Assembly: GCA_021734665.1 (NCBI GenBank)
Contig: JAIPIN010000002.1
Location: forward strand, 1-49,845
Direction: 5' to 3'
DNA: 49,845 nucleotides
From: Kiritimatiellales bacterium
GTDB lineage: Bacteria; Patescibacteriota; Gracilibacteria; Peribacterales; Peribacteraceae
Part shown: piece by piece, positions 21,384 through 43,674 of the stretch
Position numbering within the stretch: position 1 is the first letter of the stretch
Layout of the letters: every line of letters starts with the position of its first letter
Notes under the pieces: model-generated
Told to the model about the DNA's origin: nothing
Seen by the model: only the letters and a program-made list of their open reading frames with translations
The model's database searches: none
Program-made: the position numbers and the translations under genes

Positions 21384-23036
21384 TCACGAAACAGGTTGTA
21401 CGGATTTTATATGTACAGAGCTTGCCACTCCTGCATTGCTCACATCTTTTTGACAATGAAGAAATTGTTCTTTTTGTTTTATTATCTTATTAAGCTCTTT
21501 TGCATATTCATACAACTCCCAATCGTAAGGCAAAACAGAGCGAGCATACGTTTTTAACTCGTCCATGGTCCTAAATCCGGACTCTTCAAGTGTAATATAC
21601 GATCGTGGTGTTACATTGATCTTATACGGATGCCCCTGTTTGATACCAAGCAATGAATACAGAATATCGTAATCTTCGCTCTGCTCTGTAATACCCACAA
21701 ACGAAAATTGCCTTAGAATCGCTTTGAGTGACTCAAAATGTTGCGCAGTAATGCCACCCTTTGCAGGAACGGAAATATAAAACCAGCGCAAAAAGAATCC
21801 GACGGGACTAAGAATATGATTAGGGTTTGTTTCGGTGTCTAACCATTCACGAAATAATCTCACACTCCCATCACTACGAAAGAGATTGGTATAAATACCT
21901 GGCTGACCAGTGCGATCATATTCACTACGATGATAATTGTATTTCGAAATAAGACGCTCGGCAGGATCTCTCAAAAATGTAACATATCGCAATGCTCTCT
22001 CGGGGAAACACTTTGCAACCAATTCGGAACGAAGATCGTGCGAAAATAATACCTGTACCTTTTTACAATCTTTCCAAGACAGCGCGGCAAATTTTTCCTG
22101 CGCTTTCGGATCACTTTCAGATGTGCGATAGTACGACCATACCGTATCTTTCGGCAGACTATTAACAACATGTTCTCTAATTGTAAGTCCTCCAGTTTTT
22201 GGAACATGCACAAAAACCGTAAGCGGCTTACCATGCCAAACACCTCGTATATGCACAGAAGGATGAATCGGCACATTGTGCTTCACAGCAATGCTAAATG
22301 CCTTGCTGCTATACTCCTCATATGCCATGAGTACCTCTGCAGACGCACCATACATCTGCACTTTTCCCTTATCAATCCAAAGCACTTTATCAGCAAATTC
22401 TTGCATAAATTCCGAACTGTGCCCTGTCATAACCACAGTTGCCTCGCTACTTACAAGTTCCGCCATACGATTACGACTTTTATTTCTGAATTGCAAATCA
22501 CCAGTTGCAAACACCTCATCCAATAAGAGAATTTCCGGCTCCAAATGTGCCGCAATAGCAAAAGCTAATCGAGCAGTCATACCACTGGAAAACTTATACC
22601 AATGCACATCCACAAAATCTTCCAATTCAGAAAACGCCACAATTGAATCAAATTTTTCCGATATAGCCTCCCGTGACAACCCAAGCAAAGAACCTATTAA
22701 ATAAATGTTATCGCGCATCGTTAGCTTTGGCTCCGCACCAACAGCAGTACTAATCAGTGGCACTAAATTACCATGTGTACATACATCTCCACTGGTAGGA
22801 GGATATATGCCAGCCAACAGCCTCAGAAGAGTAGTTTTCCCAGATCCGTTGCGACCAATAATTCCAAGTACCTCTCCTTGCCGCAAGGTAAGAGATACAT
22901 TATCTAGTGCTCTGATCTTGCGCGGCATACTCGATCCTTTTACTGCTCCAACCACTTTTGCCAAAATTGTCCCCTCCTCTTGTAAGATGAAATCCTTAGT
23001 AAGATTGCGTGCCAAAATTGAAATATTCAACGTCAT
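21384..23036 (-). CDS. polysaccharide/teichoic-acid type ABC transporter ATP-binding protein (Wzt/TagH-like) fused to a C-terminal sulfotransferase domain
   Basis: 550 aa with Walker A GRNGSGKTT, signature FSSGMTARLAFA, Walker B ILLLDE and H-loop TGHS. VFVHVPKTGGLT and FLRDPAERLISKYNY follow. It overlaps the ABC-2 permease gene by 4 nt. Confidence 0.85.
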   Translation of the reverse strand: MTLNISILARNLTKDFILQEEGTILAKVVGAVKGSSMPRKIRALDNVSLTLRQGEVLGIIGRNGSGKTTLLRLLAGIYPPTSGDVCTHGNLVPLISTAVGAEPKLTMRDNIYLIGSLLGLSREAISEKFDSIVAFSELEDFVDVHWYKFSSGMTARLAFAIAAHLEPEILLLDEVFATGDLQFRNKSRNRMAELVSSEATVVMTGHSSEFMQEFADKVLWIDKGKVQMYGASAEVLMAYEEYSSKAFSIAVKHNVPIHPSVHIRGVWHGKPLTVFVHVPKTGGLTIREHVVNSLPKDTVWSYYRTSESDPKAQEKFAALSWKDCKKVQVLFSHDLRSELVAKCFPERALRYVTFLRDPAERLISKYNYHRSEYDRTGQPGIYTNLFRSDGSVRLFREWLDTETNPNHILSPVGFFLRWFYISVPAKGGITAQHFESLKAILRQFSFVGITEQSEDYDILYSLLGIKQGHPYKINVTPRSYITLEESGFRTMDELKTYARSVLPYDWELYEYAKELNKIIKQKEQFLHCQKDVSNAGVASSVHIKSVQPVS

Positions 23037-23782
23037 ACGTATTCAGCGAATTTAGGTGAAATTCGATTAAAAATTACGCTTCCCACACCGTAAACCACCA
23101 ATGCAAAACAAGCAAAAATTCCGAGTAAAAGTAAGTCTGGTACTCTGGAATAAACAAGAACATCTCGCGATAATTCAATGGAATAAAACATTGGATTAAA
23201 CATGCTAACCTTTTCACCTGGTCCTCCCGGATGCAACATATAAAAAATAGGTGTTGCAAACCACCACGCACGCATTAGCACAGACCATACCTGTCCCAGA
23301 TCACGAAATATAAAATGCAAAGAAGAAAGCATGAGGCCAACACCAAACGTAAATATAAATTGAAATGCGAGAAGAATAGGAAAAAACAATGCTGTTACAG
23401 ATAAGGACCCATTATAAATAAGAAATACCGACAACAGCAGAAGTTCAAAAATATGCGAGAAAAAAACATCCAGTACTACCGATAAAACAATGTGCCTTTT
23501 ATTTACAGGCAAAGATTTAATAAGTGTAGCTTCTCCCATAACAGCATTAAGAGATTGCGATGTTGCAGCACTAAAGAAATTCCATACCACCACTCCCGTA
23601 AGAAGATACGAAGAATAATGCTCAATATTACTACCCAAACGCGCAGAAAAAACTAACAAGAGAATGATAAATGTTAACAATGGTCCCAACAAATACCAGA
23701 AAACACCCAAAAAACTCCCTTCGTTACGCAATTTGAAACGCGCTTTTGTCAGTTCGAAAATGAAATCAAAATTCTTATGCAT
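23033..23782 (-). CDS. ABC-2 type transporter permease (Wzm/TagG-like)
   Basis: 249 aa with six hydrophobic segments. The N-terminus ELTKARFKLRNEGSFLGVFWYLLGPL is typical of ABC-2 polysaccharide exporters. It is coupled to the ATPase gene. Confidence 0.85.
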   Translation of the reverse strand: MHKNFDFIFELTKARFKLRNEGSFLGVFWYLLGPLLTFIILLLVFSARLGSNIEHYSSYLLTGVVVWNFFSAATSQSLNAVMGEATLIKSLPVNKRHIVLSVVLDVFFSHIFELLLLSVFLIYNGSLSVTALFFPILLAFQFIFTFGVGLMLSSLHFIFRDLGQVWSVLMRAWWFATPIFYMLHPGGPGEKVSMFNPMFYSIELSRDVLVYSRVPDLLLLGIFACFALVVYGVGSVIFNRISPKFAEYV

Positions 23783-23874: not shown

Positions 23875-23972
23875 TTCCCCTTTCCCCTTTCCCCTTTCCC
23901 TTTCCCCTTTTCCCTTTCCTCTTTTCCCTTTCACTTTTCACTTTTAACTATTCACTCTTCACTCTTCACTCT
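23875..23972 (+). repeat. polypyrimidine tract: a 58-nt uninterrupted C/T run of (CCCTTT)-like words, then (CACTCTT/CACTTTT) words
   Basis: Read directly. Positions 23875-23932 contain only C and T. Up to 23972 only scattered A and no G occur. It ends 13 nt before the lysK ATG. Confidence 0.9.
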
Positions 23973-26361: not shown

Positions 26362-26402
26362 AGACAGTTATTCTCTTTGTTCATTTGTAATCAAAAAAAG
26401 GC

Positions 26403-29422: not shown

Positions 29423-29532
29423 TTTATAGAACAATTGCCTCTACACACTCTGTAAATAATACTATTTTTGCAAAATCATTATTAGTTACAAAAAATGGGA
29501 ATAAAGTCGCACCACATGTACAATCGTGCGCC

Positions 29533-30333
29533 ATGATTGACGTTTCAATAATTATCCCGACCTACAAACGTCCTGAGCTAACTGCGCAGGCAGTTAATTC
29601 ATGCAAAAAACAATCTGGATGTTCAATCGAAATTATAGTTGTCCATGATGGCGATAATATTGATCAAAAATTAGATGGGAATGTTAGGCAGATATACCAA
29701 GAACATAAAGGAGCAGCAGCAGCTCGCAACTTGGGACTCAGCGAGGCCAAAGGTACATATATAAAATTTTTAGACTCGGATGATTTGCTCAATCCAGAAT
29801 CGCTATGCAAACAGGTCGTGGAATTAGAAAAATCCAATGCAGATGTATCTGTTGGAAAATGGAAATATTGTGACAGCGAAGGGAATCCAGAAAATCATAT
29901 TCATTGTGAGTATATTGAAGACATGTTACCAATTCTTGTTGCTGGATTTTGGAATGCAAACTTCTCATACCTATTTCGTAAATCATGGCTAATAAGTAAC
30001 CATTGTAAATGGGATATTGATTGCGCTGTTCTTCAAGACTTTGCATTCATTATGGAAGTAAGTTTAAAAAGGGCACGCTTCATTAAATCTGACATAGAAA
30101 CTGGTTTTTATAGAAGACATAAACTTGGCCAGCGTGTATCTAGATCCTCTGATGAGTGCCGTTCCAAACACTATTATGAAATTCTTGAATCGGCACAAAA
30201 ATACTTATTAACTTCAAATAAAATAAATCCTGTGTATACCACACTTATAGATACACAAATGAAAAAAATCTCGGCAATGGAATCTATACCAGAAAATATA
30301 AGTGCCATGACGAGAGCTTGCCGGCTAACTTAA
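29533..30333 (+). CDS. GT2 family glycosyltransferase (single domain)
   Basis: 266 aa with VSIIIPTYKRPELTAQAVNSCKKQ, IIVVHDGDN, AAAARNLGL and FLDSDD. Confidence 0.85.
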   Translation: MIDVSIIIPTYKRPELTAQAVNSCKKQSGCSIEIIVVHDGDNIDQKLDGNVRQIYQEHKGAAAARNLGLSEAKGTYIKFLDSDDLLNPESLCKQVVELEKSNADVSVGKWKYCDSEGNPENHIHCEYIEDMLPILVAGFWNANFSYLFRKSWLISNHCKWDIDCAVLQDFAFIMEVSLKRARFIKSDIETGFYRRHKLGQRVSRSSDECRSKHYYEILESAQKYLLTSNKINPVYTTLIDTQMKKISAMESIPENISAMTRACRLT

Positions 30334-30396
30334 ATGAGTGATAAGAAATTGCATCTACCCTAGCCCCAGCCCTAAACTTAGCCCTAACACCTACTG

Positions 30397-31731
30397 TTAC
30401 TTAGTAGCAATATCAGACTTAACAACTACCTGCTCATATCCAGGAGTAATAACTCTGTATCTTCCAAATGAATCTATTACAGCAGAAGGACCATTTGCAG
30501 ATACACGAATAACATCAAGCCCAGTTTCTACTGCACGGACACGATCCTGAAAATCTTGCATATTGTGAATAATAGGACTTGCAAACGTGCTTGGATTAGA
30601 TAGTACGATTAAATAATCGACACCTAATTTAGCCCAACTCTTAGCTACATGCCTAACAGCATCTTCATAGCACAATATAATCCCCGCTCTCCCAATAGGC
30701 GTATCAATCTCTTCATAGTGGTCATCAAATACCTCTCCAACTTCTCTAAATGGCAAATTTACACCTGCATTATATGAACCATCGAGCCCCTTTGTAGGAG
30801 AGAAGCTATAAGCTACATTAAACTGACCACCAGCATCTTGGTTATAACTTGTATACGTTCCAAGTATTATGTGCTTACCCGAATCTTTACTGAGCTTTGT
30901 AAAAAATGAAATGGTCTCTTCATCATTCAAAAATCCCGATAAGTTGTATTGCGGGAAGATAACTAGTTCAGTATCAACTTCGTTAGCCCACTTGGTATAA
31001 GAAGACAGGATAAGATCTGAGTTATCCACTCTCCACTGCATATTCATTGGATAATTTGTCTGCACAATTGTAACTTCTGCATTCCCTTCCACTTGTGGAT
31101 TTGAAAATAGCCTCCATCCACCCCAAGCTGCAACACATAACACAATGCATCCAATAATAATTACTGTATTTATCGAAAGTCGATCCTTTAATAAAAGCAT
31201 ACGACCAAAGGCGATGTTAAATGCCAATACAAGCACAACAAGAAGCTCCATCCCCCCAAGTATTCCTGTTTGAATAAGCGGCAACGGCTGATAGAACATT
31301 GCTTCTACAGGAAAAGAGTCTACAGCTGTGTGATGGAATATTTGCATGATTATCAACCAAACTCCTGTAGGAATAATGAGGTGAAACAACATGCTCGCTT
31401 TGCGTGAACTGTTCTTAGTTAATTTTGTTGTAATGCTAATAGCTCCAAATAACACTGCCCATGGAGCACCAGCTGCGAATATCATCTTTAAAAACATTTC
31501 CCATCCATATGCGGCAACAACCGAATTAACCGTATTTACCCAATAAAATATGCCAGCTAAATAACCAAATGATATATCTCTTACAAAACATGGTTTTCTG
31601 TAAATTGGATAAAACATGATTCCAAACCCAGCCCACACCAAAAGGAAGGCAATTGCATATGCAGTACTGACCGTTATAAAAAGAAAGCCAATTATGGTAA
31701 TTAAAGCTGATGAGCGAAATACTGAGCGCAT
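30397..31731 (-). CDS. apolipoprotein N-acyltransferase (Lnt)-like membrane protein with a carbon-nitrogen hydrolase domain
   Basis: 444 aa. The N-terminal half is hydrophobic with about 7-8 segments. The C-terminal half has a CN-hydrolase layout (EVTIVQTN, ELVIFPQYN, LPFREV, GIILCYED). Confidence 0.6.
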   Translation of the reverse strand: MRSVFRSSALITIIGFLFITVSTAYAIAFLLVWAGFGIMFYPIYRKPCFVRDISFGYLAGIFYWVNTVNSVVAAYGWEMFLKMIFAAGAPWAVLFGAISITTKLTKNSSRKASMLFHLIIPTGVWLIIMQIFHHTAVDSFPVEAMFYQPLPLIQTGILGGMELLVVLVLAFNIAFGRMLLLKDRLSINTVIIIGCIVLCVAAWGGWRLFSNPQVEGNAEVTIVQTNYPMNMQWRVDNSDLILSSYTKWANEVDTELVIFPQYNLSGFLNDEETISFFTKLSKDSGKHIILGTYTSYNQDAGGQFNVAYSFSPTKGLDGSYNAGVNLPFREVGEVFDDHYEEIDTPIGRAGIILCYEDAVRHVAKSWAKLGVDYLIVLSNPSTFASPIIHNMQDFQDRVRAVETGLDVIRVSANGPSAVIDSFGRYRVITPGYEQVVVKSDIATK

Positions 31732-31854
31732 ATGAAATGTAAATGTAAATTAATGTAAAAAGTAAACGATTTGTTTTAATGATGATAACATCAATTACCT
31801 AACATATTACAAAAATATATACCTGATATGATATATTTTTCATATAATTAATTT

Positions 31855-32826
31855 ATGAGTTTAAAAAATAACACTCTTGGGCTCTTTGTAATTCTGCTTG
31901 TAGCCGAAGGAGTTGGAATAGCGTGGGAAGGTTTATGGTGGCAAGAGATTATTGATGCATATTCAATTTTTGGTGATCCTCCACAATTGCTATACCACAC
32001 TTCGATTTTGATTATGCTCTTGATAGCATTAAGAGAATCTCAAAAGCCACACCAAAAAATATGGGGAATAATCAGCATATTGCTAATACTGCTATTAATA
32101 AATATTCCTCTTACTTATTACGTAAATAGTATCTTTGGTGTTCCATCACGTTACGGACTCATAATTTATTGGGGAGCCCCTTATATATTTACTTCAATCT
32201 TCTCGATAGGCATTTGCATATTTCTATTAAAAATAATTAAGCAAAAATCATATAACAAATGGAACCCTCTTCTTCAATACGCAATTTATGCTTCAATTTT
32301 GATGCATCTACTTATTCGATTACGTCCATTTAGACCTACATCTACCGTACATGATGTAATTGGCTTCTGGGGACCAGGGGTGATAATTGCTGCATTTATT
32401 TTTGTTCTTCTATTTGCAAAAAAAACCATTGATTCAAAATACAGCGCAACCAAAACAACATTTGTAACACTTAGCCTTTATTCACTAATAGGATTACTAG
32501 GTATATGGACTTTCTCTATAGCCAAAATATCTGCCGAAATTTGGCAAAATATGCTTTTGGGCGGATTCACACATCCTCCGACTGTACTTAGTAGTCTTTC
32601 ACTTATTGTTTGTGCATTAATTATAGACATGAAGACATTTTCAGCTCGTATCAAAGTACTAATTGCCTCGGTAGTGCAAGCTGGACTTTTGTATGGAGCC
32701 GCCAACTTTTTTATTGCACCTGTTGCCTCTTATGGAAAATTAGAATTTTTAACTGCTGTAATTTCCGCTGCAATTGGAGGACTTATGGCTTATCAATTAT
32801 TTATTTTAAGTACTAAAAAAGTTTAG
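31855..32826 (+). CDS. polytopic membrane protein, function unknown
   Basis: 323 aa with about ten hydrophobic segments and no motif I recognise. It is divergent from the Lnt-like gene and 23 nt upstream of the deacetylase gene. Confidence 0.6.
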   Translation: MSLKNNTLGLFVILLVAEGVGIAWEGLWWQEIIDAYSIFGDPPQLLYHTSILIMLLIALRESQKPHQKIWGIISILLILLLINIPLTYYVNSIFGVPSRYGLIIYWGAPYIFTSIFSIGICIFLLKIIKQKSYNKWNPLLQYAIYASILMHLLIRLRPFRPTSTVHDVIGFWGPGVIIAAFIFVLLFAKKTIDSKYSATKTTFVTLSLYSLIGLLGIWTFSIAKISAEIWQNMLLGGFTHPPTVLSSLSLIVCALIIDMKTFSARIKVLIASVVQAGLLYGAANFFIAPVASYGKLEFLTAVISAAIGGLMAYQLFILSTKKV

Positions 32827-32849
32827 ACTTATTTCCAACTCATATTCCT

Positions 32850-33596
32850 TTGGAATCTGTAAATCAACAAAGGCTAGCCATCTTAACTATTGATGATTCT
32901 CCATCAGTAGACTTACAAATCAGACTTAAGCATCTTAAAGAAAGATCTCTAACTGCTATTTTATTTTGCAGAGGCGATTATCTAGAAAAAAGACCAGAAC
33001 TGGCGTTACAAGCTATTCATGAAAAACACATAATTGGGAATCATGCATTTAGTCATACACCATTTTCAAATTTAACACTTGCAGAAGGGGAAAAAGAAAT
33101 ATCAAAAACCGAACAAATAATAGATAGAATCTACGAACAATCTGATATAAGACGTCCTGCCAAAGTATTTCGCTTTCCTTATGGCGACAAAGGTAACAGA
33201 GATCCCACTCACTCCACCAGAGCAGAAGATTTACAGAAAATACTAAAAGAATTTGGATTCTCACCACCAAAACTTCCAAATCTTACAAACTCTCACTATC
33301 AATCAATAAATGCTCACAAAGACCTAGATTGGTTTTGGACATTTGATGCGATGGAATATGGCATATATAGAGAATGGGCAAAAGATCTACACACAATTGA
33401 TGATGTATATAACCGTATGAACACAGATAGCCCGGATAAAGGAATTGAGATCAATAATGGCACTTCGGATGAAATTATCTTAATACACGACCACAGTGAA
33501 ACCACTGACGTTTTCCCAGATATTTTGGACAGACTTTTGCAAAAGAACTGTAAATTTGTGTCCCCAGAAGGCCATATTGATATTTTTATACAATGA
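32850..33596 (+). CDS. polysaccharide deacetylase (NodB homology / CE4), no signal peptide
   Basis: 248 aa with LTIDDSPS (motif 1), IGNHAFSH (motif 2), FRFPYGDKG (motif 3) and ILIHDH. The ORF opens with TTG. Confidence 0.8.
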   Translation: MESVNQQRLAILTIDDSPSVDLQIRLKHLKERSLTAILFCRGDYLEKRPELALQAIHEKHIIGNHAFSHTPFSNLTLAEGEKEISKTEQIIDRIYEQSDIRRPAKVFRFPYGDKGNRDPTHSTRAEDLQKILKEFGFSPPKLPNLTNSHYQSINAHKDLDWFWTFDAMEYGIYREWAKDLHTIDDVYNRMNTDSPDKGIEINNGTSDEIILIHDHSETTDVFPDILDRLLQKNCKFVSPEGHIDIFIQ

Positions 33597-33680
33597 AGAA
33601 GGTTTCTATCTTCAGGAACAGAACTAATCTATTCCAGTTGGAGAAAATGTCCTAATTGGCTATAGTTACGAGCCTTTATC

Positions 33681-36600
33681 ATGGAAGTTTTCTGGCAACC
33701 AATCATCAGGCCGATCTTTGATATCCTATTGCCAAAGTCTGTTGTAGAAATTGGTATCGATAAAGGTGACAACACAAAACATTTGCTCGAATACTGCAAA
33801 AAACATAATGGATTCTTGCACGGCATTGACCCCGAACGAAATGAGATTACCTCTGCATTAGAAGCAGAATACTCACACTTTTTTAAATTTTATGAGGACC
33901 TAAGCCTAAATACACTGCCAAAACTCGAATCATATGATGCAATTTTAATCGACGGTGATCACAATTGGTACACCGTATATCACGAACTGATCCTAATTGA
34001 GAAATGTGCACAGAAACAAGGCACGTTCCCAATGGTATTTATTCACGATGTTGGGTGGCCATACGGCAAACGTGATATGTATTTCAATGCAGAAATTATC
34101 CCAGAAAAATACCGCCAAATGCACAAGAAAGGAGGGTTGCAAATAGACAATGGCATCCCACAGGATAATAACGGATTCAATGCACACTTTGACCATGCAT
34201 TGTATGAGCATGGCATTCAAAATGGAGTGCTATCCGCAATGGAAGACTTTTTGAAACAAACAGAATTTAATCTTACAAGTACTGTTATTCTTGGTTTTCA
34301 TGGATTAGGAATTTTGTGTGATAAAAAAATATTGGATTCTAATTCCCAACTTAAAAAATTACTTAATGGTCTGGATTGCCCACAAGAACTTAAATCCGCA
34401 ACTATTGCCGTTGAGCAAGATCGCATAAAACAGATCATATATAATAATGAATTGTTGCAAACATGTTCTCATACAAGAAGACAGCTTGAAAACGAACAGA
34501 GGGAGAAGCAGGAAAGAGAACTCATGGAGAAACAAGAACAAGAACTGAGGGAGAAACAAGAACAAGAACTGAGGGAGAAGCAGGAAAGAGAACTCAGGGA
34601 GAAACAAGAACAAGAACTGAGGGAGAAGCAGGAAAGAGAACTCAGGGAGAAACAAGAACAAGAACTGAGGGAGAAGCAGGAAAGAGAACTCAGGGAGAAA
34701 CAAGAACAAGAACTGAGGGCGAAACAAGAACAAGAACTGAGGGAGAAGCAGGAAAGAGAACTCAGGGAGAAACTCGAAAGAGAACTTAAAGACAAAGAAG
34801 CCCAACAAGTACTATGGACTGGTGAACGAAAACAGATACTTAAAAATCTAGATCAAATTAAAATGGAGAATTCCGCCAATAAAGAACGATTAATACAAAG
34901 AAAAAGGCTAATGGAAGAAAATAGGACTATGTATATAAGACAAATTACTAATCTAGAAATTAATAATAAAAACAAGCTCGAAGAAGAGCGTTCTAAGAAT
35001 CAAAATCACACAACCGAGTTGGAAGAAATTATTACACAAGAAGTTCAAAAAAATGCGATTCTTAGCCGAGACATACAACACATTCTTAAGAGTAAGAGCT
35101 GGCGTTGGACACATTTCTTACGTGTGTTAGATAAAATTCTTAAATGGCCTAGAACAAAAAAGCCTTTATATTGGCTTTGTGCCAATTTAAAAGATATTTG
35201 GACAGATTTCGATGAGCCATTTCCAAAACTCGTTCGTTTTATCCGACACAATATACTGGGCTGCTGGCTTCCATCTGATACACAAAATGCAGTACAGCCA
35301 ATTCAGGGGGATGCAATCTTCTACAATGATAAATATCTATCAACTCTAAATACACTTAAACAGAAAGATCTTCAGCAGAGCAATGAAGCAGTTAATAACA
35401 TGCATTGGCTGCCATCAATACACATTGTAATATTTGTAGAACTGCTTGATGAAATTAGATTGCGCAAAACACTTAACTCTATTGTGGAACAAACCTACTA
35501 CAACTGGAATATAACAGTGCTAGATGCTTCTAAGAGCTACACAAGCGTACAAAGCATTGTAAAAGATTACTCCATACACTATCCAGAAAAAATCAAGTAC
35601 ATAAGACAGCATGCCAATCAGAACCCACACATAGAAGCCATAGAAAACAACAAAAGTACATATGTATCATTTATGGATAGTACAAATACCCTACAGCATG
35701 ACGCACTTGAACGCTTGTTCACTGCAGCCATTGAAGAGGCAAATCTGCCCGATCTTATTTATAGTGATCATGATGAATTACACTGCTCGAACGCATCGGA
35801 ATACACACCTGTATTCAAACCCGGATGGAGCCCAGAATTGCTTCTGTCATATAATTACATAGGAGCATTTTTTCTCATAAAACACTCCATGCTTCTAAAA
35901 TGCATAGATAATACAAATATTCAAGAACAAGAAACCTTTGCATATGATCTTCTTCTAAGAATTGCAGAACATGATCCTGCTGCAATACATATACCACAAG
36001 TGCTCTGGCGCCAGAGCAAATCATTTGTAATTACTTCTCAGAGAATAGAAGCGCATCGCTCAACCCTACAAAAAGCATTGGCCAGAAGAGGCCTAAAACA
36101 CAGAATAGAATATGGTGAGTACGCACAAAAACACAATGAAATATTTTTCTCAATTAAATCCAACTTCAGCGCTAAAGAGGAGCCAACCGTTACAATAATA
36201 ATCCCAACAAAGGATCGCGCTGAAATGCTAAAAAATTGTATTAACTCAATAACAAAAAAAACCGACTACAAACGATATAAAATCTTAATTGTTGATAATG
36301 GAAGCGAGGAATTGGCAACAAAGAATTATCTACAATCACTTACACACACTGTGCTAAAATTAGAAACTAAACAATTTAACTTTGCATATATTAATAACCG
36401 AGCTGTTCAAAACACGGACACAGAACTGTTGCTTTTCCTTAATAATGACACAGAAATCCTTAATGAAGGGTGGTTACGAGAAATGGTCGGCACAATGTCA
36501 CTCGATAAGAATATTGGCGCAGTAGGCTCTAAGTTACTCTATCCAGAAGGAGCATTCCCGTACCGCGTACAAAGCGCAGGAGCGATATTAGGTAGGCATT

Positions 36601-37079
36601 GGTCAAGTCTAGTAAAATTTAAAACTGAAGAAGAATTGGGTTATGGCTTTTATAACCACGTCATGCGCAATTGCGCCATAGTAAGTGGATCGTGCATGCT
36701 CACAAAACGAAATCTATTTGCAAAGGTTGGAGGATTCGACACAGAGAAATTTGGCATTGATTTTAATGATGTAGATTATTGTTTGAAGCTTATGCAAGAA
36801 GGATATCGCACTGTTTGGACACCACATGCTCGGATACTCCATCATCTATCCGCTAGCCGTGGTAGTAACAACGGGCTTGGCGCAAACGTAGTTACAAAAG
36901 AATCAAAAGCATTCGAAAGAAAATGGGGATGGCTATTCGGACACGATCCGTATTACAACTGTAATTTTTCATTAGATATTCAAGATGATGCGTTTACACC
37001 ACGAACACGCTCTTCTTTTCGATCACCATACACACAATCACATTCTCGCAACACTTCGTCGACAATAAACTCAATTTGA
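33681..37079 (+). CDS. multidomain protein: class I SAM methyltransferase (Methyltransf_24-like), long ER/K-rich helix plus coiled coil, and two GT2 domains
   Basis: 1132 aa. The methyltransferase part has VVEIGIDKGDNTKHLLEY...ILIDGDHNWYTVYHEL. The repeat is (EKQE[RQ]ELR)x12 and the linker motif is SKSWRWTHFLR. GT2-1 has IHIVIFVELLD...SFMDS. GT2-2 has VTIIIPTKDRAEMLKNCINS..ILIVDNGS..FLNNDTE. Confidence 0.85.
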   Translation: MEVFWQPIIRPIFDILLPKSVVEIGIDKGDNTKHLLEYCKKHNGFLHGIDPERNEITSALEAEYSHFFKFYEDLSLNTLPKLESYDAILIDGDHNWYTVYHELILIEKCAQKQGTFPMVFIHDVGWPYGKRDMYFNAEIIPEKYRQMHKKGGLQIDNGIPQDNNGFNAHFDHALYEHGIQNGVLSAMEDFLKQTEFNLTSTVILGFHGLGILCDKKILDSNSQLKKLLNGLDCPQELKSATIAVEQDRIKQIIYNNELLQTCSHTRRQLENEQREKQERELMEKQEQELREKQEQELREKQERELREKQEQELREKQERELREKQEQELREKQERELREKQEQELRAKQEQELREKQERELREKLERELKDKEAQQVLWTGERKQILKNLDQIKMENSANKERLIQRKRLMEENRTMYIRQITNLEINNKNKLEEERSKNQNHTTELEEIITQEVQKNAILSRDIQHILKSKSWRWTHFLRVLDKILKWPRTKKPLYWLCANLKDIWTDFDEPFPKLVRFIRHNILGCWLPSDTQNAVQPIQGDAIFYNDKYLSTLNTLKQKDLQQSNEAVNNMHWLPSIHIVIFVELLDEIRLRKTLNSIVEQTYYNWNITVLDASKSYTSVQSIVKDYSIHYPEKIKYIRQHANQNPHIEAIENNKSTYVSFMDSTNTLQHDALERLFTAAIEEANLPDLIYSDHDELHCSNASEYTPVFKPGWSPELLLSYNYIGAFFLIKHSMLLKCIDNTNIQEQETFAYDLLLRIAEHDPAAIHIPQVLWRQSKSFVITSQRIEAHRSTLQKALARRGLKHRIEYGEYAQKHNEIFFSIKSNFSAKEEPTVTIIIPTKDRAEMLKNCINSITKKTDYKRYKILIVDNGSEELATKNYLQSLTHTVLKLETKQFNFAYINNRAVQNTDTELLLFLNNDTEILNEGWLREMVGTMSLDKNIGAVGSKLLYPEGAFPYRVQSAGAILGRHWSSLVKFKTEEELGYGFYNHVMRNCAIVSGSCMLTKRNLFAKVGGFDTEKFGIDFNDVDYCLKLMQEGYRTVWTPHARILHHLSASRGSNNGLGANVVTKESKAFERKWGWLFGHDPYYNCNFSLDIQDDAFTPRTRSSFRSPYTQSHSRNTSSTINSI
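34503..34790 (+). repeat. in-frame tandem repeat of 12 x 24 nt (alternating A/B units giving a 48-nt period), encoding EKQERELR/EKQEQELR
   Basis: Counted unit by unit. Three consecutive 48-nt super-units are identical. Unit types differ at synonymous sites as well (aag/aaa, cag/caa, ctc/ctg). Confidence 0.95.
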
Positions 37080-38191
37080 GATGCTACATCACAAATATTA
37101 TAAAGACGAGGAATAACATCTTGCCCACTAGATACCAACCTCTTACCTTCTTCTGGATTCAATACAATATTAGCAACCGCCTTGGCAAAAAGCTCTGGTT
37201 TGGGCATGTCAACAAGATGAACAAATCCCTCATCCCCAAATTCTTTAGGACCACCAGCACTTTCACATACAACAACTGGCTTACCCATGAGAGTGAGCTC
37301 TAAACAAACAAGACTCAACGACTCTGTGCGTGATGTCACAGTACAAATATCAAATAACGAATAATACGGACGCGGATCATTGTGTCCTCCTACAAAATGC
37401 ACACGATCAGACAGGCCAAGATGCCTAGCTTCACTATGCATTAGATAATCGTACACAGCGTCACACGGAGAAGGCTCACCCACCCAAACAAAATGACAAT
37501 TGTGCTCAGGAAGCAAATCACACAAATAACTAGCCATCTGCAACCATAGATCAACTCCTTTAAGCGGAATGCGTTGACCGGATGCACCAATTACTAACGC
37601 ATCTGTAGGAATATTAAGCCGAGCAAGAAGATTCATATCTTTAATGATAGGCTTCCATTTATTTGTATCTATTCCAGAAGAGACTATAGAAACCTTATTA
37701 GAATCGATCCCAAGATCATCTGTAAGCATTTTCTTAACATATCGTGACGCCGCTATATACCGCACAGGATAATTGCAAAACAGAGATAGTAAATCTTTAT
37801 CAAGTTGCATAAATGAAGCTGGCACTTCGTGAATATGACATATCACAGGCACACCATACAAAGCTGCTAAGTAAATAAATTCGAATGAATGTGAATTTAG
37901 ATAGTAAAGATCTGGCTGATTTTTATGTGTGTATTTAAGAACAAGACCTTGGATATATGATTTTTTATTAATATTTTGGTACGCCAAACGTGTGGTATGC
38001 AATTCATTCTGCCCCACTACACTTACAGGGTAAAGATCTGCAAACTCGCTCATAAGAGGGCCTTCTCTAAGCAGTATCACATTTGATTTCCATGACGGAT
38101 TTTTAATATGCTCCAATATATGCAAAAGCGCCAAAGGAGCGCCTGTTCGGCATGCAGAATGGCTAACAAAAGATACTGCTTTCTGTGGCAT
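36980..38191 (-). CDS. GT4 family (GT-B) glycosyltransferase
   Basis: Homology starts near MPQKAVSFVSHSACRTGAPLALLHILEHI. GGHNDPRPYYSLFDICTVTSRTESLSLVCLELTLMGKPVVVCE is present. The start was trimmed from 38227 to the Met at 38191. Confidence 0.8.
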   Translation of the reverse strand: MPQKAVSFVSHSACRTGAPLALLHILEHIKNPSWKSNVILLREGPLMSEFADLYPVSVVGQNELHTTRLAYQNINKKSYIQGLVLKYTHKNQPDLYYLNSHSFEFIYLAALYGVPVICHIHEVPASFMQLDKDLLSLFCNYPVRYIAASRYVKKMLTDDLGIDSNKVSIVSSGIDTNKWKPIIKDMNLLARLNIPTDALVIGASGQRIPLKGVDLWLQMASYLCDLLPEHNCHFVWVGEPSPCDAVYDYLMHSEARHLGLSDRVHFVGGHNDPRPYYSLFDICTVTSRTESLSLVCLELTLMGKPVVVCESAGGPKEFGDEGFVHLVDMPKPELFAKAVANIVLNPEEGKRLVSSGQDVIPRLYNICDVASQIEFIVDEVLRECDCVYGDRKEERVRGVNASS

Positions 38192-38257
38192 AATATGATT
38201 ACATCCTACATACGCCATCGTGTACAATCAACAACCTTACATCGATCACATAACACA

Positions 38258-39391
38258 ATGAGAATCCTCTTCTGTAGCCATAATAGTCAATTACAAGGCG
38301 CTCCACTCAATATTCTGAGATGTGCACGCCTACTAAAAGAGCGTGGAATTCAATGTGTTATTAGTTCACCAGAAGATGGTCCTATCCGAGAAATGTCGGA
38401 TGAGCACTGTATAACATTTGATATACAGCCGAATCTCTTCCATCCAAAATACTCGAAAGAATGTTTGATGGATATTATCAAACGACATAAGCCAGATATT
38501 ATCTTTATAAACACAATACTTGGTGCCGCAATTGTAAAAAACACCAAAGCTTTATTTCCACATCTACCAATCATATGGAACATACGCGAATCCGAACGTG
38601 AGAATTTTATGAATGCGTATGACTACATAACACCAAAGTCTTTTGAATTAGCAGATGCAATTATTTTTGTATCAGAAAAAACAAAACAAGCTTACCAAGA
38701 TTTGGACAGCGGCAATATGCATGTAATCCATAATGGAATTGATGTAGAAAAAATTGCAAGATCTATTGATCCTAAACAAAAAAATACTCTTAAGGAGAAA
38801 ATGGGCATTCCTAGAAATGCTACAACCGTTGTACTTGTTGGATCGATCTGTCCTCGCAAAGGACAAAGTGAATTTATCTCTTCTGGAATACGCGTTGCGC
38901 ACCGCATTGGGAATAAGCACCCTGTGCGCTTTGTTATTGTAGGTAAATTACACACTAATTTTAGAAAATATTTAGAGCTCTCTCTAAAACGAGCGGAGGA
39001 AGAAGGATATCGTGACAATTTCATCTTATTGCCAGAACAACAGGATATGACAAACATCTATCAAATGTCCGATATTCTGGTATCCAATTCCTTTATTGAA
39101 TCATTCCCTATGGTGACATTAGAGGCAATGGCATGGGGAATACCGATTATTGCTAGTAATGTATATGGAGTTAGCGAACAAATACAAAACAATATAAATG
39201 GGCTTCTATTCTTGCCAGGCCATGTGAGCATGCTTGCAGAAAAACTTGAATATCTGATTTTACACCCAGATATTGCGCAATCTCTTGGAGAAGAAGCCCA
39301 GAGAAATGTCCGCGAAAAATTTACAGAAGATAATATGATCACTAAGTACATTTGGCATCTAAATAACCTTATAGAACAAAAAGTGAGCTAA
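38258..39391 (+). CDS. GT4 family (GT-B) glycosyltransferase
   Basis: Starts MRILFCSHNSQLQGAPLNIL, and the C-terminal half has SNSFIESFPMVTLEAMAWGIPIIASNVYGVSEQI. The tracked ORF start (38108) would overlap the divergent gene and was rejected. Confidence 0.85.
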   Translation: MRILFCSHNSQLQGAPLNILRCARLLKERGIQCVISSPEDGPIREMSDEHCITFDIQPNLFHPKYSKECLMDIIKRHKPDIIFINTILGAAIVKNTKALFPHLPIIWNIRESERENFMNAYDYITPKSFELADAIIFVSEKTKQAYQDLDSGNMHVIHNGIDVEKIARSIDPKQKNTLKEKMGIPRNATTVVLVGSICPRKGQSEFISSGIRVAHRIGNKHPVRFVIVGKLHTNFRKYLELSLKRAEEEGYRDNFILLPEQQDMTNIYQMSDILVSNSFIESFPMVTLEAMAWGIPIIASNVYGVSEQIQNNINGLLFLPGHVSMLAEKLEYLILHPDIAQSLGEEAQRNVREKFTEDNMITKYIWHLNNLIEQKVS

Positions 39392-39412
39392 TCTTTTTTG
39401 TTCACAGTCTGC

Positions 39413-40813
39413 CTATATAATAATTTCCTCTTCTCTCTCGGGCATAAAAATTTCCACCCCATTCTTTGATTTCTTAATACGATCTGCAAAAGGTTGCATG
39501 CTTTCCATTTCTCCATGCACTAAAATTATTTTCTTTATTCCCTCCGTATCAGAAACAAAATTATCTAGATCATTCATATCCGCGTGACCCGAATATGCGT
39601 TGATATATACCACTTCTGCACGCTTTTGGTACATCTCATCAAAAATTTTAACTTCTGTAATTTCTGGATCCACAATCCTACGACCGAGTGTATTGTTGGC
39701 CATATAACCAACTGCAAGAATTGTATTACGCTCATCTTCGATCTCGTTACGTAAATGATGACGAATCCGACCCGCTTCACACATTCCTGATCCAGCCATA
39801 ATAATAATAGGACCTGGTGTTCCATTTAATGCTTTGCTCTCTTCCACCGACGCCGTGTACTTAACCAGAGAAAACTGAAAAGGATTATGTGCTTTAGATA
39901 AGAATTGTTCATACATATCTTTGTCATAACATTCTGGGTGCTGCATAAAAACATCTGTTACCTTGGTAGCAAGTGGAGAATCTACAAAGATAGAAATTCC
40001 TGGGATCTCTTTTTTGTCCCACAAAACGTGCAGATCGTAGATAATCTCCTGAGTGCGCTCCAAAGAAAAGGCAGGGATTAGTACTTTTCCTCCTCTCTTT
40101 GCCGTGTTAACTACAACCTCTTTTAAATGATCTACAGCTGTAGAAATATCTTCATGTAAACGATTACCATATGTACTCTCGCAAATAAGAATATCTACTG
40201 GCGGCATAGGGGATGGATCTCTGATAATCGGGAGCATATTTCGACCCAAATCCCCAGTGAAACCAACGTACTTAGTCTCTCCATTCTCTGTTACTTCCAA
40301 AATAACCATTGCCGCTCCAATAATATGCCCCGCCTCAATAAATTTTGCCTTTACTCCTTCACATACATCAAACCAGTTTTCGTAATTCTCACCCTGAAAT
40401 ACTTCCATACAATCAATCGCATCCTGCTGCGTATATAAAGGGCCCTTACAATCCATTTTTGATTTTGCCAAATGCTTACAAAAGTACTCTTCGTCTTTCT
40501 CATGTATATACCCACTATCCATCAACATAACCTCTACTAAATCCTTTGTGGCATATGTGCAATGAACATTTTTGCGAAATCCATTCTTATATAGAAGTGG
40601 AATACGCCCCGAATGATCCATGTGTGCATGCGAAAGAACAACAGCATCAATATCTTTTGCAGGATCAAATGTAAATTCTGCATTCTTTACCGCGGCTTCG
40701 CTTCTTTTACCTTGAAAAAGGCCGCAATCTAACAAAATACGCTTAGACCCAACTTGAACTTCGTGGCATGTTCCTGTTACCTCTCGAGCCGCACCATGTG
40801 GAATAATTTTCAT
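39413..40813 (-). CDS. MBL-fold beta-CASP ribonuclease (CPSF/RNase J-related)
   Basis: 466 aa with HGAAREVTGTCH and the HxHxDH motif VLSHAHMDHSGRIP. Length and C-terminal SGHAD fit beta-CASP. Confidence 0.85.
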   Translation of the reverse strand: MKIIPHGAAREVTGTCHEVQVGSKRILLDCGLFQGKRSEAAVKNAEFTFDPAKDIDAVVLSHAHMDHSGRIPLLYKNGFRKNVHCTYATKDLVEVMLMDSGYIHEKDEEYFCKHLAKSKMDCKGPLYTQQDAIDCMEVFQGENYENWFDVCEGVKAKFIEAGHIIGAAMVILEVTENGETKYVGFTGDLGRNMLPIIRDPSPMPPVDILICESTYGNRLHEDISTAVDHLKEVVVNTAKRGGKVLIPAFSLERTQEIIYDLHVLWDKKEIPGISIFVDSPLATKVTDVFMQHPECYDKDMYEQFLSKAHNPFQFSLVKYTASVEESKALNGTPGPIIIMAGSGMCEAGRIRHHLRNEIEDERNTILAVGYMANNTLGRRIVDPEITEVKIFDEMYQKRAEVVYINAYSGHADMNDLDNFVSDTEGIKKIILVHGEMESMQPFADRIKKSKNGVEIFMPEREEEIII

Positions 40814-40908
40814 AAAAAGTTAATAGGAAATATATTATGCAATAGATCCCTCGTAGCCCCGAAGGGCGAAGTGGGATCGAGCCGCACCATGTGGAATAAT
40901 TTTCATAA
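40784..40908. repeat. 32-nt direct repeat (40784-40815 and 40877-40908) duplicating the 5' end of the beta-CASP gene, flanking a 61-nt insert with a GC-rich palindrome (40845-40878, GCGAAG family copy iv)
   Basis: tcgagccgcaccatgtggaataattttcataa occurs twice with an offset of 93 nt. The palindrome is GATCCC-TCGTAGCCCCGAAGGGCGAAGT-GGGATC. Confidence 0.9.
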
Positions 40909-40965
40909 GTGCAATCAGGATAGCACACAACAACTAAGTGCCACATAGCTCAAAACAAAGTATGG

Positions 40966-43593: not shown

Positions 43594-43674
43594 AAAAAAT
43601 TAAAGGATTGGGGGCAGAATCTTATCATTAATACCATGTACTTTTGTAATAAAATCGCATCGGTTTGAACGGTT

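What the first reader, a model, noticed from the sequence alone, without database searches (positions are those of the whole stretch)
34503..34790. Near-perfect 24/48-nt tandem DNA repeat encodes an ER/K-type single-alpha-helix candidate, giving a potentially length-variable ruler
Seen: there are 12 in-frame 24-nt units, and three consecutive 48-nt super-units are 100 percent identical. The A and B unit types also differ at synonymous positions, so the array grew by duplication of the 48-nt pair. The encoded octads, EKQERELR and EKQEQELR, have only one hydrophobic residue per 8. They offer E-to-R/K pairs at i,i+4 (E1-R5, K2-E6, E4-R8). Established: that pattern characterises stable single alpha helices (ER/K motifs of myosin VI/X and others) rather than heptad coiled coils. 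A helix rises about 0.15 nm per residue. Inference: the 96 residues would form a rigid spacer of about 14 nm. Its length can change in 8- or 16-residue steps by slipped-strand or unequal recombination, which would shift glycan modal chain length between cells or strains.
Basis: partly seen in the sequence, partly recalled or inferred. Interest (0 to 1): 0.7.

Follow-up and report, generated by a model that had tools for sequence, protein, structure and literature searches.

The report
Repeat-built charged helix in glycan ruler
A very recent tandem DNA repeat has added about 14 nm of highly charged, probably free-standing alpha-helix to the spacer between the chain-capping and chain-building parts of a sugar-polymer enzyme in an uncultivated bacterium, and related enzymes show that such spacers change length between near-identical strains.

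Summary
There are twelve in-frame 24-nt units at 34503-34790, and a 172-nt stretch is perfectly 48-periodic.

The array lies inside a 1132-aa gene (33681-37079, +). The protein has an N-terminal SAM methyltransferase, a roughly 235-residue helical connector, and a dual GT-A polymerase like chondroitin polymerase K4CP. The gene sits in a wzm/wzt ABC-transporter glycan locus of a Peregrinibacteria (CPR) genome. This is the known terminator-ruler-polymerase layout of WbbB, K. pneumoniae O7 ORF6, WbdD and WsaE.

The array makes the connector the longest among close homologues: 261 aa against 100-205. Without the array it would be 165 aa.

By sequence the array is ER/K-like, not coiled coil. It is 67% charged, every i/i+4 ladder alternates charge, and there is one Leu per octad. 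Hydrophobic residues fill only 0.12-0.25 of would-be a/d positions. AlphaFold2 gives one continuous helix.

Among 34 other repeat-bearing family connectors, 28 have periods that are multiples of 7. None has an octad or a comparable ER/K-like stretch.

In 6 of 19 clusters at 90% identity or more, the connector differs by tandem indels. The positional orthologue differs by one perfect 54-nt duplication across 23 kb of near-identical DNA.

Three things remain untested: the monomeric state, copy-number variation of this particular array, and its effect on chain length.

The parts
33681..37079 (+). Gene for a 1132-aa protein with methyltransferase, helical connector and two GT2 modules (terminator-ruler-polymerase candidate)
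   Evidence: ORF list. Pfam finds Methyltransf_24 at aa 22-123 and Glycos_transf_2 twice. AlphaFold2 model.
33681..34370 (+). N-terminal class I SAM-dependent methyltransferase domain (aa 1-230), the putative chain-terminating cap enzyme
   Evidence: Pfam PF13578 E=4.9e-12. AF2 pLDDT is mostly above 90 (84-98 by 10-residue block). Family-conserved residues E23 I24 G25 G29 D50 D91 G92 D93 H94 are present. There are 1324 family representatives, and the domain is N-terminal in nearly all of the 150 listed.
34383..34790 (+). Connector helix 1 (aa 235-370). Its last 96 residues are the array.
   Evidence: AF2 predicts a continuous helix at 235-370, with pLDDT about 80 falling to 53 in the full-length model and about 91 for the connector alone.
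34503..34790 (+). Twelve 24-nt units (octads EKQERELR / EKQEQELR), the ER/K-like single-alpha-helix candidate, about 14 nm long
   Evidence: for the repeat. for composition and periodicity.
34548..34719 (+). Core with perfect 48-nt periodicity (three identical AB super-units at 34575-34718), the most recent duplications and the most slippage-prone part
34791..34823 (+). Predicted helix break or hinge (aa 371-381, DKEAQQVLWTG)
   Evidence: AF2 gives non-helical structure with pLDDT below 50 in both models.
34824..35090 (+). Connector helix 2 (aa 382-470), more hydrophobic and more coiled-coil-like
   Evidence: AF2 helix. 28% LIVMFWY, and best heptad a/d occupancy 0.38-0.62.
35091..35285 (+). 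Conserved post-connector module (KSWRWT..LR ... LKDIWTDFxEPxPKLxRFIRH..LG..WP), W/R/K-rich, function unknown; it may dock on the membrane or on the GT module
   Evidence: The first motif (SWRxT) is conserved in all 13 close homologues and the second (LKDIWTDF...RFIRH) is recognisable in about 10 of them. Amphipathic moments are 0.32-0.46. The function is inference only.
35418..36020 (+). First GT-A (GT2) module (about aa 580-780)
   Evidence: Pfam GT2 second stretch and NCBIfam hits at 593-761. AF2 fold. K4CP, PmHS2 and LARGE1 dual-GT matches.
36183..36857 (+). Second GT-A (GT2) module (aa 835-1059)
   Evidence: Pfam PF00535 and PF13641. NCBIfam. Foldseek.
23036..23782 (-). Wzm-like ABC-2 permease of the same glycan locus
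   Evidence: Pfam ABC2_membrane. NCBIfam Wzm/RfbD.
21387..23036 (-). Wzt-like ABC ATPase with a C-terminal sulfotransferase-like extension
   Evidence: Pfam ABC_tran plus a weak Sulfotransfer_2 hit. NCBIfam Wzt/RfbE and TagH. VHVPKTGGLT motif.

Best explanation
The array is a very recent in-frame tandem expansion inside the alpha-helical connector ('molecular ruler') of a single-polypeptide glycan terminator-polymerase. The C-terminal pair of GT-A modules would polymerise a repeat-unit glycan on a lipid carrier at the cytoplasmic face of the membrane. The N-terminal SAM-dependent methyltransferase would cap the non-reducing end and stop growth. The roughly 235-residue helical connector holds the capping site away from the polymerase, so only chains above a threshold length are capped and then exported by Wzm/Wzt. 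The 96 array residues (about 14 nm, roughly 40% of the connector) most likely form an ER/K-type single alpha-helix stabilised by three continuous i/i+4 salt-bridge ladders, not a packed coiled coil. Because such a helix has no heptad register to keep, it can grow or shrink by 8 or 16 residues (1.2 or 2.4 nm) through slippage or unequal recombination, and this would retune modal chain length. What is shown: the repeat, the domain architecture, the locus context, the ER/K composition, the absence of a seam, the predicted helix, and length polymorphism of the same connector in relatives. What is inferred: terminator activity, the ruler function, the monomeric state, and any effect on chain length.
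For: Repeat and reading frame.

Architecture. Foldseek and a PDB profile match the C-terminal half to the dual-GT polymerases K4CP, PmHS2 and LARGE1.

Locus: wzm/wzt, six further GT genes, a polysaccharide deacetylase-like gene and sulfotransferases.

Literature: a coiled-coil ruler separating terminator from polymerase is characteristic of ABC-transporter-dependent assembly, including MT-coil-2xGT2 in K. pneumoniae O7 and WbbB in O12, and ruler length sets chain length (PMC11231755). WsaE has an N-terminal 2-O-methyltransferase cap enzyme plus two rhamnosyltransferase domains (PMC2943079).

Connector length: 261 aa against 100-205 in 12 close homologues, and 165 aa without the array.

ER/K character: 67% charged (36% acidic, 30% basic), 15% LIVMFWY, no same-charge i+4 pairs, and an E->K/R i+4 density of 0.30, equal to the validated AEEEKRK design. 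My crude SAH score is 0.38, against 0.07-0.10 for GCN4, tropomyosin and the flanks. Best heptad a/d hydrophobic occupancy is 0.12-0.25, with 50-75% charged residues at would-be core positions.

Structure prediction: AF2 gives a continuous helix at 235-370.

Family contrast: of 34 other connectors with tandem repeats, 28 have periods of 7, 14, 21, 28 or 56. The rest have 11, 18 (twice), 29, 32 and 36. In about 208 members scanned, none has an octad and the longest ER/K-like stretch is 19 aa (P0020), against 80 here.

Length polymorphism: 6 of 19 clusters at 90% identity or more differ by connector indels of 18, 7, 28/84, 49, 28 and 14xn aa, and apart from start-codon or terminal differences and one 1-aa gap in a non-helical segment (P0076 cluster), every indel is in the connector. 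The positional orthologue locus differs by 14 SNPs plus one perfect 54-nt duplication over 22,991 nt, and each allele was seen in several independent assemblies.
Against: There is no experimental or multimer-model evidence for the monomeric state. The array is less charged (67% against about 76%) and more hydrophobic (15% against about 10%) than benchmark myosin SAHs (PMC5378345), and B units carry net charge -1.

AF2 confidence falls to about 53 over the second half of the array in the full-length model.

A predicted break right after the array (aa 371-381) means end-to-end distance need not scale simply with residue number. I could not inspect coordinates to see whether helix 2 folds back on helix 1.

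No other copy of this array was found anywhere, so its variability is untested and its copy number could be an assembly estimate.

Terminator activity of the methyltransferase rests on homology and analogy only. In vitro, WsaE methylation was independent of chain length (PMC2943079).

The Wzt C-terminal extension looks like a sulfotransferase, not a cap-binding CBM.
Confidence: 0.55

Rival explanations
1. The array is part of an oligomeric (dimeric or trimeric) coiled coil, like the characterised WbdD and WbbB rulers. It would have an unusually polar core, be held together by the more hydrophobic flanks, and act as a ruler in the ordinary way.
For: All characterised rulers are described as coiled coils (PMC11231755). 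The flanks at aa 236-262 and 369-470 reach heptad a/d occupancies of 0.5-0.62. Q3 and L7 form a neutral stripe with spacing 4. Highly charged segments can occur inside coiled coils (PMC5378345).
Against: An 8-residue period (4.0 residues per turn for the Q/L stripe) lies outside known coiled-coil periodicities of 3.5-3.75 (established knowledge). Leu recurs every 8 residues, an 80-degree rotation per unit, so no seam forms. Would-be core positions are 50-75% charged. Relatives' repeats and indels are almost all multiples of 7, whereas this one is not, since 96 mod 7 = 5.
Confidence: 0.2
2. The array is a selectively neutral or slightly deleterious slippage product in a tolerant linker, or its copy number is partly an assembly artefact. 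It has no tuned role in chain-length control.
For: The core is 100% identical over 172 nt, so it is very young. The array is 82% purine and low in complexity. No orthologue carries it. The 172-nt perfect periodicity is near the resolving limit of short-read assemblers. Unrelated proteins carry similar octads.
Against: The array stays in frame with no stops and consists only of strong helix formers with ideal charge alternation. If the connector is a ruler, any length change has a physical consequence whether or not it was selected. Connector length polymorphism recurs in 6 of 19 related clusters, and apart from start-codon or terminal differences and one 1-aa gap in a non-helical segment, indels are confined to the connector.
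Confidence: 0.15
3. The array is a flexible polyampholyte tether, disordered or only transiently helical. It would let the methyltransferase sweep a volume and would not set a defined distance.
For: Charge is high and hydrophobicity low. AF2 pLDDT is about 53 for aa 330-370 in the full-length model. SAHs themselves are semi-flexible constant-force springs (PMC4183817).
Against: The array has no Pro, Gly or Ser. All its residues (E, K, R, Q, L) have high helix propensity, and charges are well mixed with perfect i+4 complementarity. The single-sequence AF2 model gives pLDDT about 91 across the whole array.
Confidence: 0.1

Closest known systems
WbbB (Klebsiella pneumoniae O12 / Raoultella terrigena): single-protein terminator, coiled-coil ruler and two polymerase GTs
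   Same: One polypeptide carries the terminating enzyme at the N-terminus, a long helical spacer, and two polymerising GT modules at the C-terminus. It belongs to a wzm/wzt ABC-transporter pathway (PMC11231755).
   Different: The WbbB terminator is a beta-Kdo glycosyltransferase, not a methyltransferase. Its spacer is described as a coiled coil. No sequence homology to WbbB was detected here. The host here is a CPR bacterium, which probably lacks LPS (my knowledge).
K. pneumoniae O7 ORF6 (methyltransferase-kinase, CBM, coiled coil, two GT2)
   Same: It has an N-terminal methyltransferase, a central helical region and two C-terminal GT2 modules (PMC11231755).
   Different: ORF6 has an extra kinase and a CBM, and it adds methyl-phosphate. 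Its methyltransferase resembles CgnL, whereas the one here is Pfam Methyltransf_24, related to the TylF and CmcI families. No ER/K octad array is reported for it.
WbdD (E. coli O9a / K. pneumoniae O3, O5)
   Same: The terminating methyltransferase sits at the distal end of an extended helical ruler whose length sets the O-polysaccharide size distribution (PMC11231755, PMC3482155).
   Different: In WbdD the polymerase WbdA is a separate protein recruited to it. The ruler is an oligomeric coiled coil with a C-terminal membrane helix.
WsaE (Geobacillus stearothermophilus S-layer glycan)
   Same: It has an N-terminal O-methyltransferase that makes the terminal 2-O-methyl cap, plus two glycosyltransferase domains, in a wzm/wzt cluster of a monoderm (PMC2943079). 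Firmicute homologues of the window protein with MT_24 plus GT domains exist.
   Different: I had no WsaE sequence, so homology was not tested. [quoted passage not shown]
ER/K single alpha-helix (SAH) domains of myosin VI/X, INCENP, caldesmon, and designed AEEEXXX peptides
   Same: It shares high E plus K/R content, dense i/i+4 salt-bridge networks, no hydrophobic seam, and a role as a spacer between two functional domains (PMC5378345, PMC4183817, PMC5347031).
   Different: This is a resemblance of kind, not homology. The array is a near-perfect octad with one Leu and one to two Gln per unit. It is less charged (67% against about 76%). It is bacterial and is made by a very recent DNA repeat.
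Dual GT-A glycosaminoglycan polymerases (K4CP chondroitin polymerase, PmHS2 heparosan synthase)
   Same: The C-terminal half matches them in sequence profile and fold across both GT-A domains (E=2e-63; E=6.5e-17).
   Different: Those enzymes have no N-terminal methyltransferase and no long helical connector.

Membership tests
ER/K-type stable single alpha-helix (SAH) | Very high and balanced content of E and K/R (benchmark about 76% charged in myosin SAHs) | tested here: met
   67% charged, 36% acidic and 30% basic. This is somewhat below the benchmark in PMC5378345. A units have net charge 0 and B units -1.
ER/K-type stable single alpha-helix (SAH) | Dense opposite-charge pairs at i/i+4 (and networks i, i+4, i+8) with few same-charge clashes | tested here: met
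   The E->K/R i+4 density is 0.30 and K/R->E is 0.29, with same-charge i+4 at 0.00. There are three continuous ladders: E1/R5, K2/E6 and E4/R8.
ER/K-type stable single alpha-helix (SAH) | No hydrophobic seam (no i, i+3/4, i+7 hydrophobic network) | tested here: met
   There is one Leu per 8 residues, rotating 80 degrees per unit. Best heptad a/d occupancy is 0.12-0.25, and spectral power at period 3.5 is about 0.06.
ER/K-type stable single alpha-helix (SAH) | Long uninterrupted helix | tested here: met
   AF2 predicts a helix at 235-370 in both models, with pLDDT about 91 for the connector alone and 80 falling to 53 in the full-length model. This is prediction only.
ER/K-type stable single alpha-helix (SAH) | Monomeric, with helicity independent of concentration and non-cooperative melting | not testable with these tools
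   This needs CD, AUC or SEC-MALS. No multimer modelling was available.
Terminator / molecular-ruler / polymerase systems of ABC-transporter-dependent glycan assembly (WbdD, WbbB, Kp O7 ORF6, WsaE type) | A chain-terminating enzyme domain at the end of the helix distal from the polymerase | tested here: inconclusive
   An N-terminal Methyltransf_24 domain with conserved SAM and metal motifs is present. Its acting as a terminator is inferred by analogy.
Terminator / molecular-ruler / polymerase systems of ABC-transporter-dependent glycan assembly (WbdD, WbbB, Kp O7 ORF6, WsaE type) | An extended alpha-helical region separating terminator from polymerase | tested here: met
   Helices at 235-370 and 382-470. 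The connector is present across the family.
Terminator / molecular-ruler / polymerase systems of ABC-transporter-dependent glycan assembly (WbdD, WbbB, Kp O7 ORF6, WsaE type) | Polymerising GT modules in the same protein or recruited to it | tested here: met
   Two GT-A/GT2 modules resemble the dual-GT polymerases K4CP and PmHS2.
Terminator / molecular-ruler / polymerase systems of ABC-transporter-dependent glycan assembly (WbdD, WbbB, Kp O7 ORF6, WsaE type) | wzm/wzt ABC transporter in the locus | tested here: met
   Window 23036-23782 (-) and 21387-23036 (-). The orthologous locus also has them.
Terminator / molecular-ruler / polymerase systems of ABC-transporter-dependent glycan assembly (WbdD, WbbB, Kp O7 ORF6, WsaE type) | The ruler is an oligomeric coiled coil | tested here: not met
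   The array has an octad period and no heptad seam. The flanks are inconclusive, with a/d occupancy of 0.38-0.62. This lowers 'is a coiled-coil ruler', not 'works like a ruler'.
Terminator / molecular-ruler / polymerase systems of ABC-transporter-dependent glycan assembly (WbdD, WbbB, Kp O7 ORF6, WsaE type) | Wzt carries a C-terminal carbohydrate-binding module that recognises the cap | tested here: inconclusive
   Wzt has a roughly 300-aa C-terminal extension, but it resembles sulfotransferases (Sulfotransfer_2 E=3e-4, a PKTGG motif, weak HS 2-O/6-O-sulfotransferase hits) and not a known CBM.
Terminator / molecular-ruler / polymerase systems of ABC-transporter-dependent glycan assembly (WbdD, WbbB, Kp O7 ORF6, WsaE type) | Glycan modal length changes with ruler length | not testable with these tools
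   This needs genetics and glycan analysis. It has been shown for WbdD and WbbB according to PMC11231755.
Tandem-repeat contingency (length-variable) locus | Repeat copy number differs between cells or strains of one population | tested here: inconclusive
   No other instance of this array exists in the genome or metagenome collections. Relatives do show such variation: a 54-nt duplication in the positional orthologue, a 14-aa unit series of 1203/1217/1231/1245 aa, and a 28-aa unit series of 1513/1569/1597 aa.

The most novel reading that the evidence does not exclude
Glycan rulers need not be coiled coils. Here a monomeric ER/K single alpha-helix, free of heptad constraints, would act as the ruler. 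Its perfect 48-nt repeats would make it a contingency locus that shifts surface-glycan chain length in steps of about 2.4 nm within a population of an episymbiotic CPR bacterium. More generally, tandem-repeat copy number in ruler connectors would be a widespread natural mechanism for diversifying glycan chain length between near-clonal strains.
Probability: 0.25. Interest if true: 0.75.

Novelty: new variant of a known kind. Interest (0 to 1): 0.55.

Why it matters
In ABC-transporter-dependent pathways, glycan chain length is thought to be set by coiled-coil rulers, a view that rests on a few engineered proteobacterial systems. This locus points to two extensions.

First, a ruler segment can be built from an ER/K single-helix-type sequence. 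Its length can then change in small steps that are not heptad multiples, without disturbing any oligomer register.

Second, ruler length is naturally polymorphic between near-identical strains through tandem-repeat gain and loss. This was seen in 6 of 19 related clusters spanning CPR bacteria, Firmicutes and methanogens.

Together these give natural allelic series for testing the ruler model. They also suggest a simple route to surface-glycan length diversity, which bears on evasion of phage, host or predator, in lineages that cannot be cultured. ER/K octads could also serve as modular spacers for engineering glycan length.

Tried and rejected
Search for other copies. Exact unit-A DNA scans of genome contigs and metagenome contigs found nothing. 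The window protein is not on record in the assembly index. Copy-number heterogeneity of this array therefore could not be tested.

Closest relatives. The closest genome (LysRS 83% identical, GCA_018814875.1) has a contig that ends just after lysS. The next closest (81%, GCA_043819035.1) carries a different glycan gene set downstream. There is no close orthologue.

Structure searches. The PDB sequence search returned only a low-complexity match to octads in 9hcj_V0, which is uninformative about oligomeric state. Foldseek with the connector-only model returned no hits.

Literature. Hagelueken et al. 2015 (PMC4650267) is not held, so ruler facts are cited through PMC11231755. A literature search linking SAH with glycan rulers found nothing relevant.

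Rejected readings. The minus-strand ORFs across the array (149 and 108 aa) are by-products of the repeat. A cyanobacterial origin, my first guess from the SLH and DUF4215 proteins, was rejected by the LysRS hits to Patescibacteria and Peregrinibacteria.

Limits of my own measures. One apparent length variant (P0053/P0118) and several others (P0013/P0411, P0044, P0050, P0066) are start-codon or truncation differences, not connector indels. My SAH score is a crude home-made measure calibrated on a few sequences, some recalled from memory. It is not the published Waggawagga or SCAN4CSAH score.
Full report
OBSERVATION. The region 34503-34790 holds twelve consecutive in-frame 24-nt units. Their order is A' B B A B A B A B B' A A''. 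Unit A is GAGAAGCAGGAAAGAGAACTCAGG (EKQERELR) and unit B is GAGAAACAAGAACAAGAACTGAGG (EKQEQELR). A and B differ by three synonymous changes plus the AGA/CAA (R/Q) codon. This pattern is expected if the 48-nt AB pair was the unit of duplication. Perfect 48-nt periodicity spans 34548-34719, which is 172 nt, so three AB pairs are identical. The diverged units sit at the edges. Tandem Repeats Finder scores the array 367, the highest for any short-period array in the window. Unit A occurs nowhere else in the window, and none is expected by chance. One caveat applies: a 172-nt perfectly periodic core is at the limit of what short-read assemblers resolve, so the copy number may be approximate.

THE GENE AND ITS SETTING. 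The array encodes aa 275-370 of a 1132-aa ORF at 33681-37079 (+).
- Pfam finds Methyltransf_24 at aa 22-123 and two GT2 stretches.
- NCBIfam places GT2 signatures at about 593-761 and 835-1059.
- AlphaFold2 with a 47-sequence alignment gives a confident methyltransferase fold (aa 1-230, pLDDT mostly above 90), a helix at 235-370, a break at 371-381, a helix at 382-470, and two GT-A domains.
- Foldseek and a PDB profile search match the C-terminal half across both GT-A domains to the bifunctional polymerases K4CP, PmHS2 and LARGE1.
- The surrounding genes are a Wzm-like permease and a Wzt-like ATPase, six further GT genes, a polysaccharide deacetylase-like gene and sulfotransferases.
- The protein has no signal peptide and starts directly with the methyltransferase fold, which fits cytoplasmic-face assembly.

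ORGANISM AND ORTHOLOGUES. The neighbouring class I LysRS is 83% and 81% identical to proteins of 'Patescibacteria group' MAGs, and 62-73% identical to many Candidatus Peregrinibacteria and Peribacterales proteins. The window is therefore from a CPR bacterium. By my own knowledge, CPR bacteria lack LPS and have a monoderm-type envelope. An SLH-domain protein in the window agrees with this. The product is then more likely an S-layer or cell-wall glycan than an O antigen.

The best homologues are only 45-46% identical (P0002/P0083, P0003). P0083/P0084 is the positional orthologue. Its locus runs rpL4-rpL3 ... lysS, methyltransferase, sulfotransferase, [MT-connector-GT2-GT2], GT4(-), GT4(+), ABC transporter, giant protein, beta-CASP. 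No collection holds another copy of the array.

SINGLE HELIX OR COILED COIL. The array is 67% charged (36% acidic, 30% basic) and 15% LIVMFWY.
- Residues four apart form four ladders. Three alternate in charge (E1/R5, K2/E6, E4/R8). One is neutral (Q3/L7).
- No same-charge i+4 pair exists. The E->K/R i+4 density of 0.30 equals that of the experimentally validated AEEEKRK design (PMC5347031).
- Leu recurs every eight residues, which rotates it 80 degrees per unit, so no seam can form.
- The best heptad register puts hydrophobic residues at only 0.12-0.25 of a/d positions, and 50-75% of those positions are charged. The flanks reach 0.38-0.62.
- A period of 8 (4.0 residues per turn for the Q/L stripe) lies outside the 3.5-3.75 range of known coiled coils (established knowledge).
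- Against benchmark myosin SAHs (about 76% charged, about 10% hydrophobic; PMC5378345), the array is somewhat less ideal.
- AlphaFold2 on the connector alone gives a helix at 235-371 with pLDDT about 91, a break at 372-379, and a second helix at 380-470.

None of this shows the oligomeric state.

FAMILY COMPARISON. The methyltransferase domain defines a large modular family. It has 1324 representatives at 50% identity with E <= 1e-10, and the domain is N-terminal in nearly all of the 150 best listed. Between conserved anchors (GxHGLG and SWRxT), the connector is 261 aa here against 100-205 aa in 12 close homologues. Without the array it would be 165 aa, which is typical.

I scanned 79 homologues and 129 further representatives. 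Thirty-four other connectors carry tandem repeats. Twenty-eight of these have periods of 7, 14, 21, 28 or 56. The rest have 11, 18 (twice), 29, 32 and 36. None has an octad, and none has an ER/K-like stretch longer than 19 aa, against 80 here. The octad array is thus an outlier in a family whose connectors otherwise obey coiled-coil arithmetic.

NATURAL LENGTH POLYMORPHISM. Among 19 clusters (at least 90% identity) with at least two full-length members, six differ by connector indels that are tandem duplications:
- 18 aa in the Peregrinibacteria orthologue (996 against 978 aa).
- 7 aa in Oscillospiraceae.
- A 28-aa unit series of 1513/1569/1597 aa.
- 49 aa in Methanobacterium.
- 28 aa in the P0033 cluster (source unnamed).
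- A 14-aa unit series of 1203/1217/1231/1245 aa in Selenomonadaceae, plus a separate 28-aa indel.

Apart from start-codon or terminal differences and one 1-aa gap in a non-helical segment (P0076 cluster), every indel lies in the connector. At DNA level, the two orthologue alleles differ by 14 substitutions and one perfect 54-nt duplication over 22,991 nt. Each allele recurs in several independent assemblies. This is direct evidence that connector length changes between near-clonal strains.

MECHANISM (INFERRED). The literature describes the terminator at the distal end of a coiled-coil ruler as characteristic of ABC-transporter-dependent assembly, and ruler length sets chain length in E. coli O9a and K. 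pneumoniae O12. K. pneumoniae O7 ORF6 has the layout methyltransferase(-kinase-CBM), coil, 2xGT2 (PMC11231755). WsaE combines a capping 2-O-methyltransferase with two rhamnosyltransferase domains (PMC2943079).

I therefore read the window protein as a terminator-ruler-polymerase, and the array as a roughly 14-nm ER/K-type extension of its ruler. Each 48-nt step would add about 2.4 nm, which I estimate as two to three disaccharide repeats. 'Rigid' is too strong. SAHs are semi-flexible springs (PMC4183817), and a hinge is predicted right after the array.

COMPARISON AND NOVELTY. The architecture is a new member of a known kind. The array is a new variant: a ruler segment that fails the 'coiled coil' feature but fits the SAH sequence definition, and that was created by very recent DNA repeats in a CPR bacterium. 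I found no paper in the held library linking SAHs to glycan rulers.

NOT SHOWN. The monomeric state, methyl capping, the ruler function, variation of this array's own copy number, and the accuracy of the assembled copy number all remain untested.

Noticed in passing
window 21387-23036 (-): The Wzt-like ABC ATPase (550 aa) carries a roughly 300-aa C-terminal extension that looks like a sulfotransferase and not a cap-binding CBM. The evidence is a Sulfotransfer_2 hit at E=3e-4, a VHVPKTGGLT PAPS-loop-like motif, and weak hits to heparan sulfate 2-O/6-O-sulfotransferases. A fusion of a nucleotide-binding domain to a sulfotransferase would couple sulfation to export.
   Followed up: partly
window 20478-21317 (-), 25582-26358 (+); L004 5093-5596 and 9041-9940: Stand-alone sulfotransferases flank the locus. 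The orthologous locus also has an APS kinase and a sulfotransferase. This suggests a sulfated surface glycan in Peregrinibacteria.
   Followed up: no
window 23875-23970: A T/C-rich 7/14/20-nt tandem repeat (TTCCCCT and related) lies in the divergent intergenic region between wzm (-) and lysS (+). It may be a variable promoter spacer.
   Followed up: no
P0080 aa 159-400 (unrelated protein): An AMIN plus Amidase_3 cell-wall amidase has about 240 aa of octad repeats as its inter-domain linker: AELKA[KR]QD about 16 times, then EKQERELK-type units. PDB 9hcj_V0 also has EKxE[RK]EAK octads. ER/K-like octads recur as spacers in unrelated proteins.
   Followed up: partly
window 35620-35700 (aa ~661-670 of the 1132-aa protein): The first GT2 module lacks a canonical DxD at the end of beta-4. 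The window has FMDSTNT, P0002 has FLQTEDM and P0003 has FLRSTDT, against FLDADDI in P0004. Its catalytic status or metal dependence may be unusual.
   Followed up: no
window 35091-35285 (aa 471-535): A conserved W/R/K-rich module sits immediately after the connector (KSWRWT..LR; LKDIWTDFxEPxPKLxRFIRH..LG..WP). The SWRxT motif is conserved in all 13 close homologues and the second motif is recognisable in about 10 of them. It is a candidate membrane-docking or GT-docking element at the base of the ruler.
   Followed up: partly
L003 (GCA_043819035.1) vs window 25582-44000 vs L004: The region downstream of the conserved rp-operon and lysS anchor holds different glycosyltransferase and sugar-modification gene sets in related genomes. 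It is a hypervariable glycan island at a fixed chromosomal position in Peregrinibacteria.
   Followed up: partly
window 44521-48744 (-) and 48900-49646 (-): A giant 1408-aa protein has eight DUF4215 repeats (294-nt DNA repeats at 46525-47358) and lies next to an SLH-domain protein. These are likely surface or S-layer-associated proteins adjacent to the glycan locus.
   Followed up: no
P0020 vs P0013 (Patescibacteria relatives), aa ~305-360: P0020 carries two extra ER/K-rich inserts in its connector relative to P0013, of 7 and 21 aa. ER/K-rich material is therefore being added to connectors in other CPR relatives too, there in multiples of seven.
   Followed up: partly
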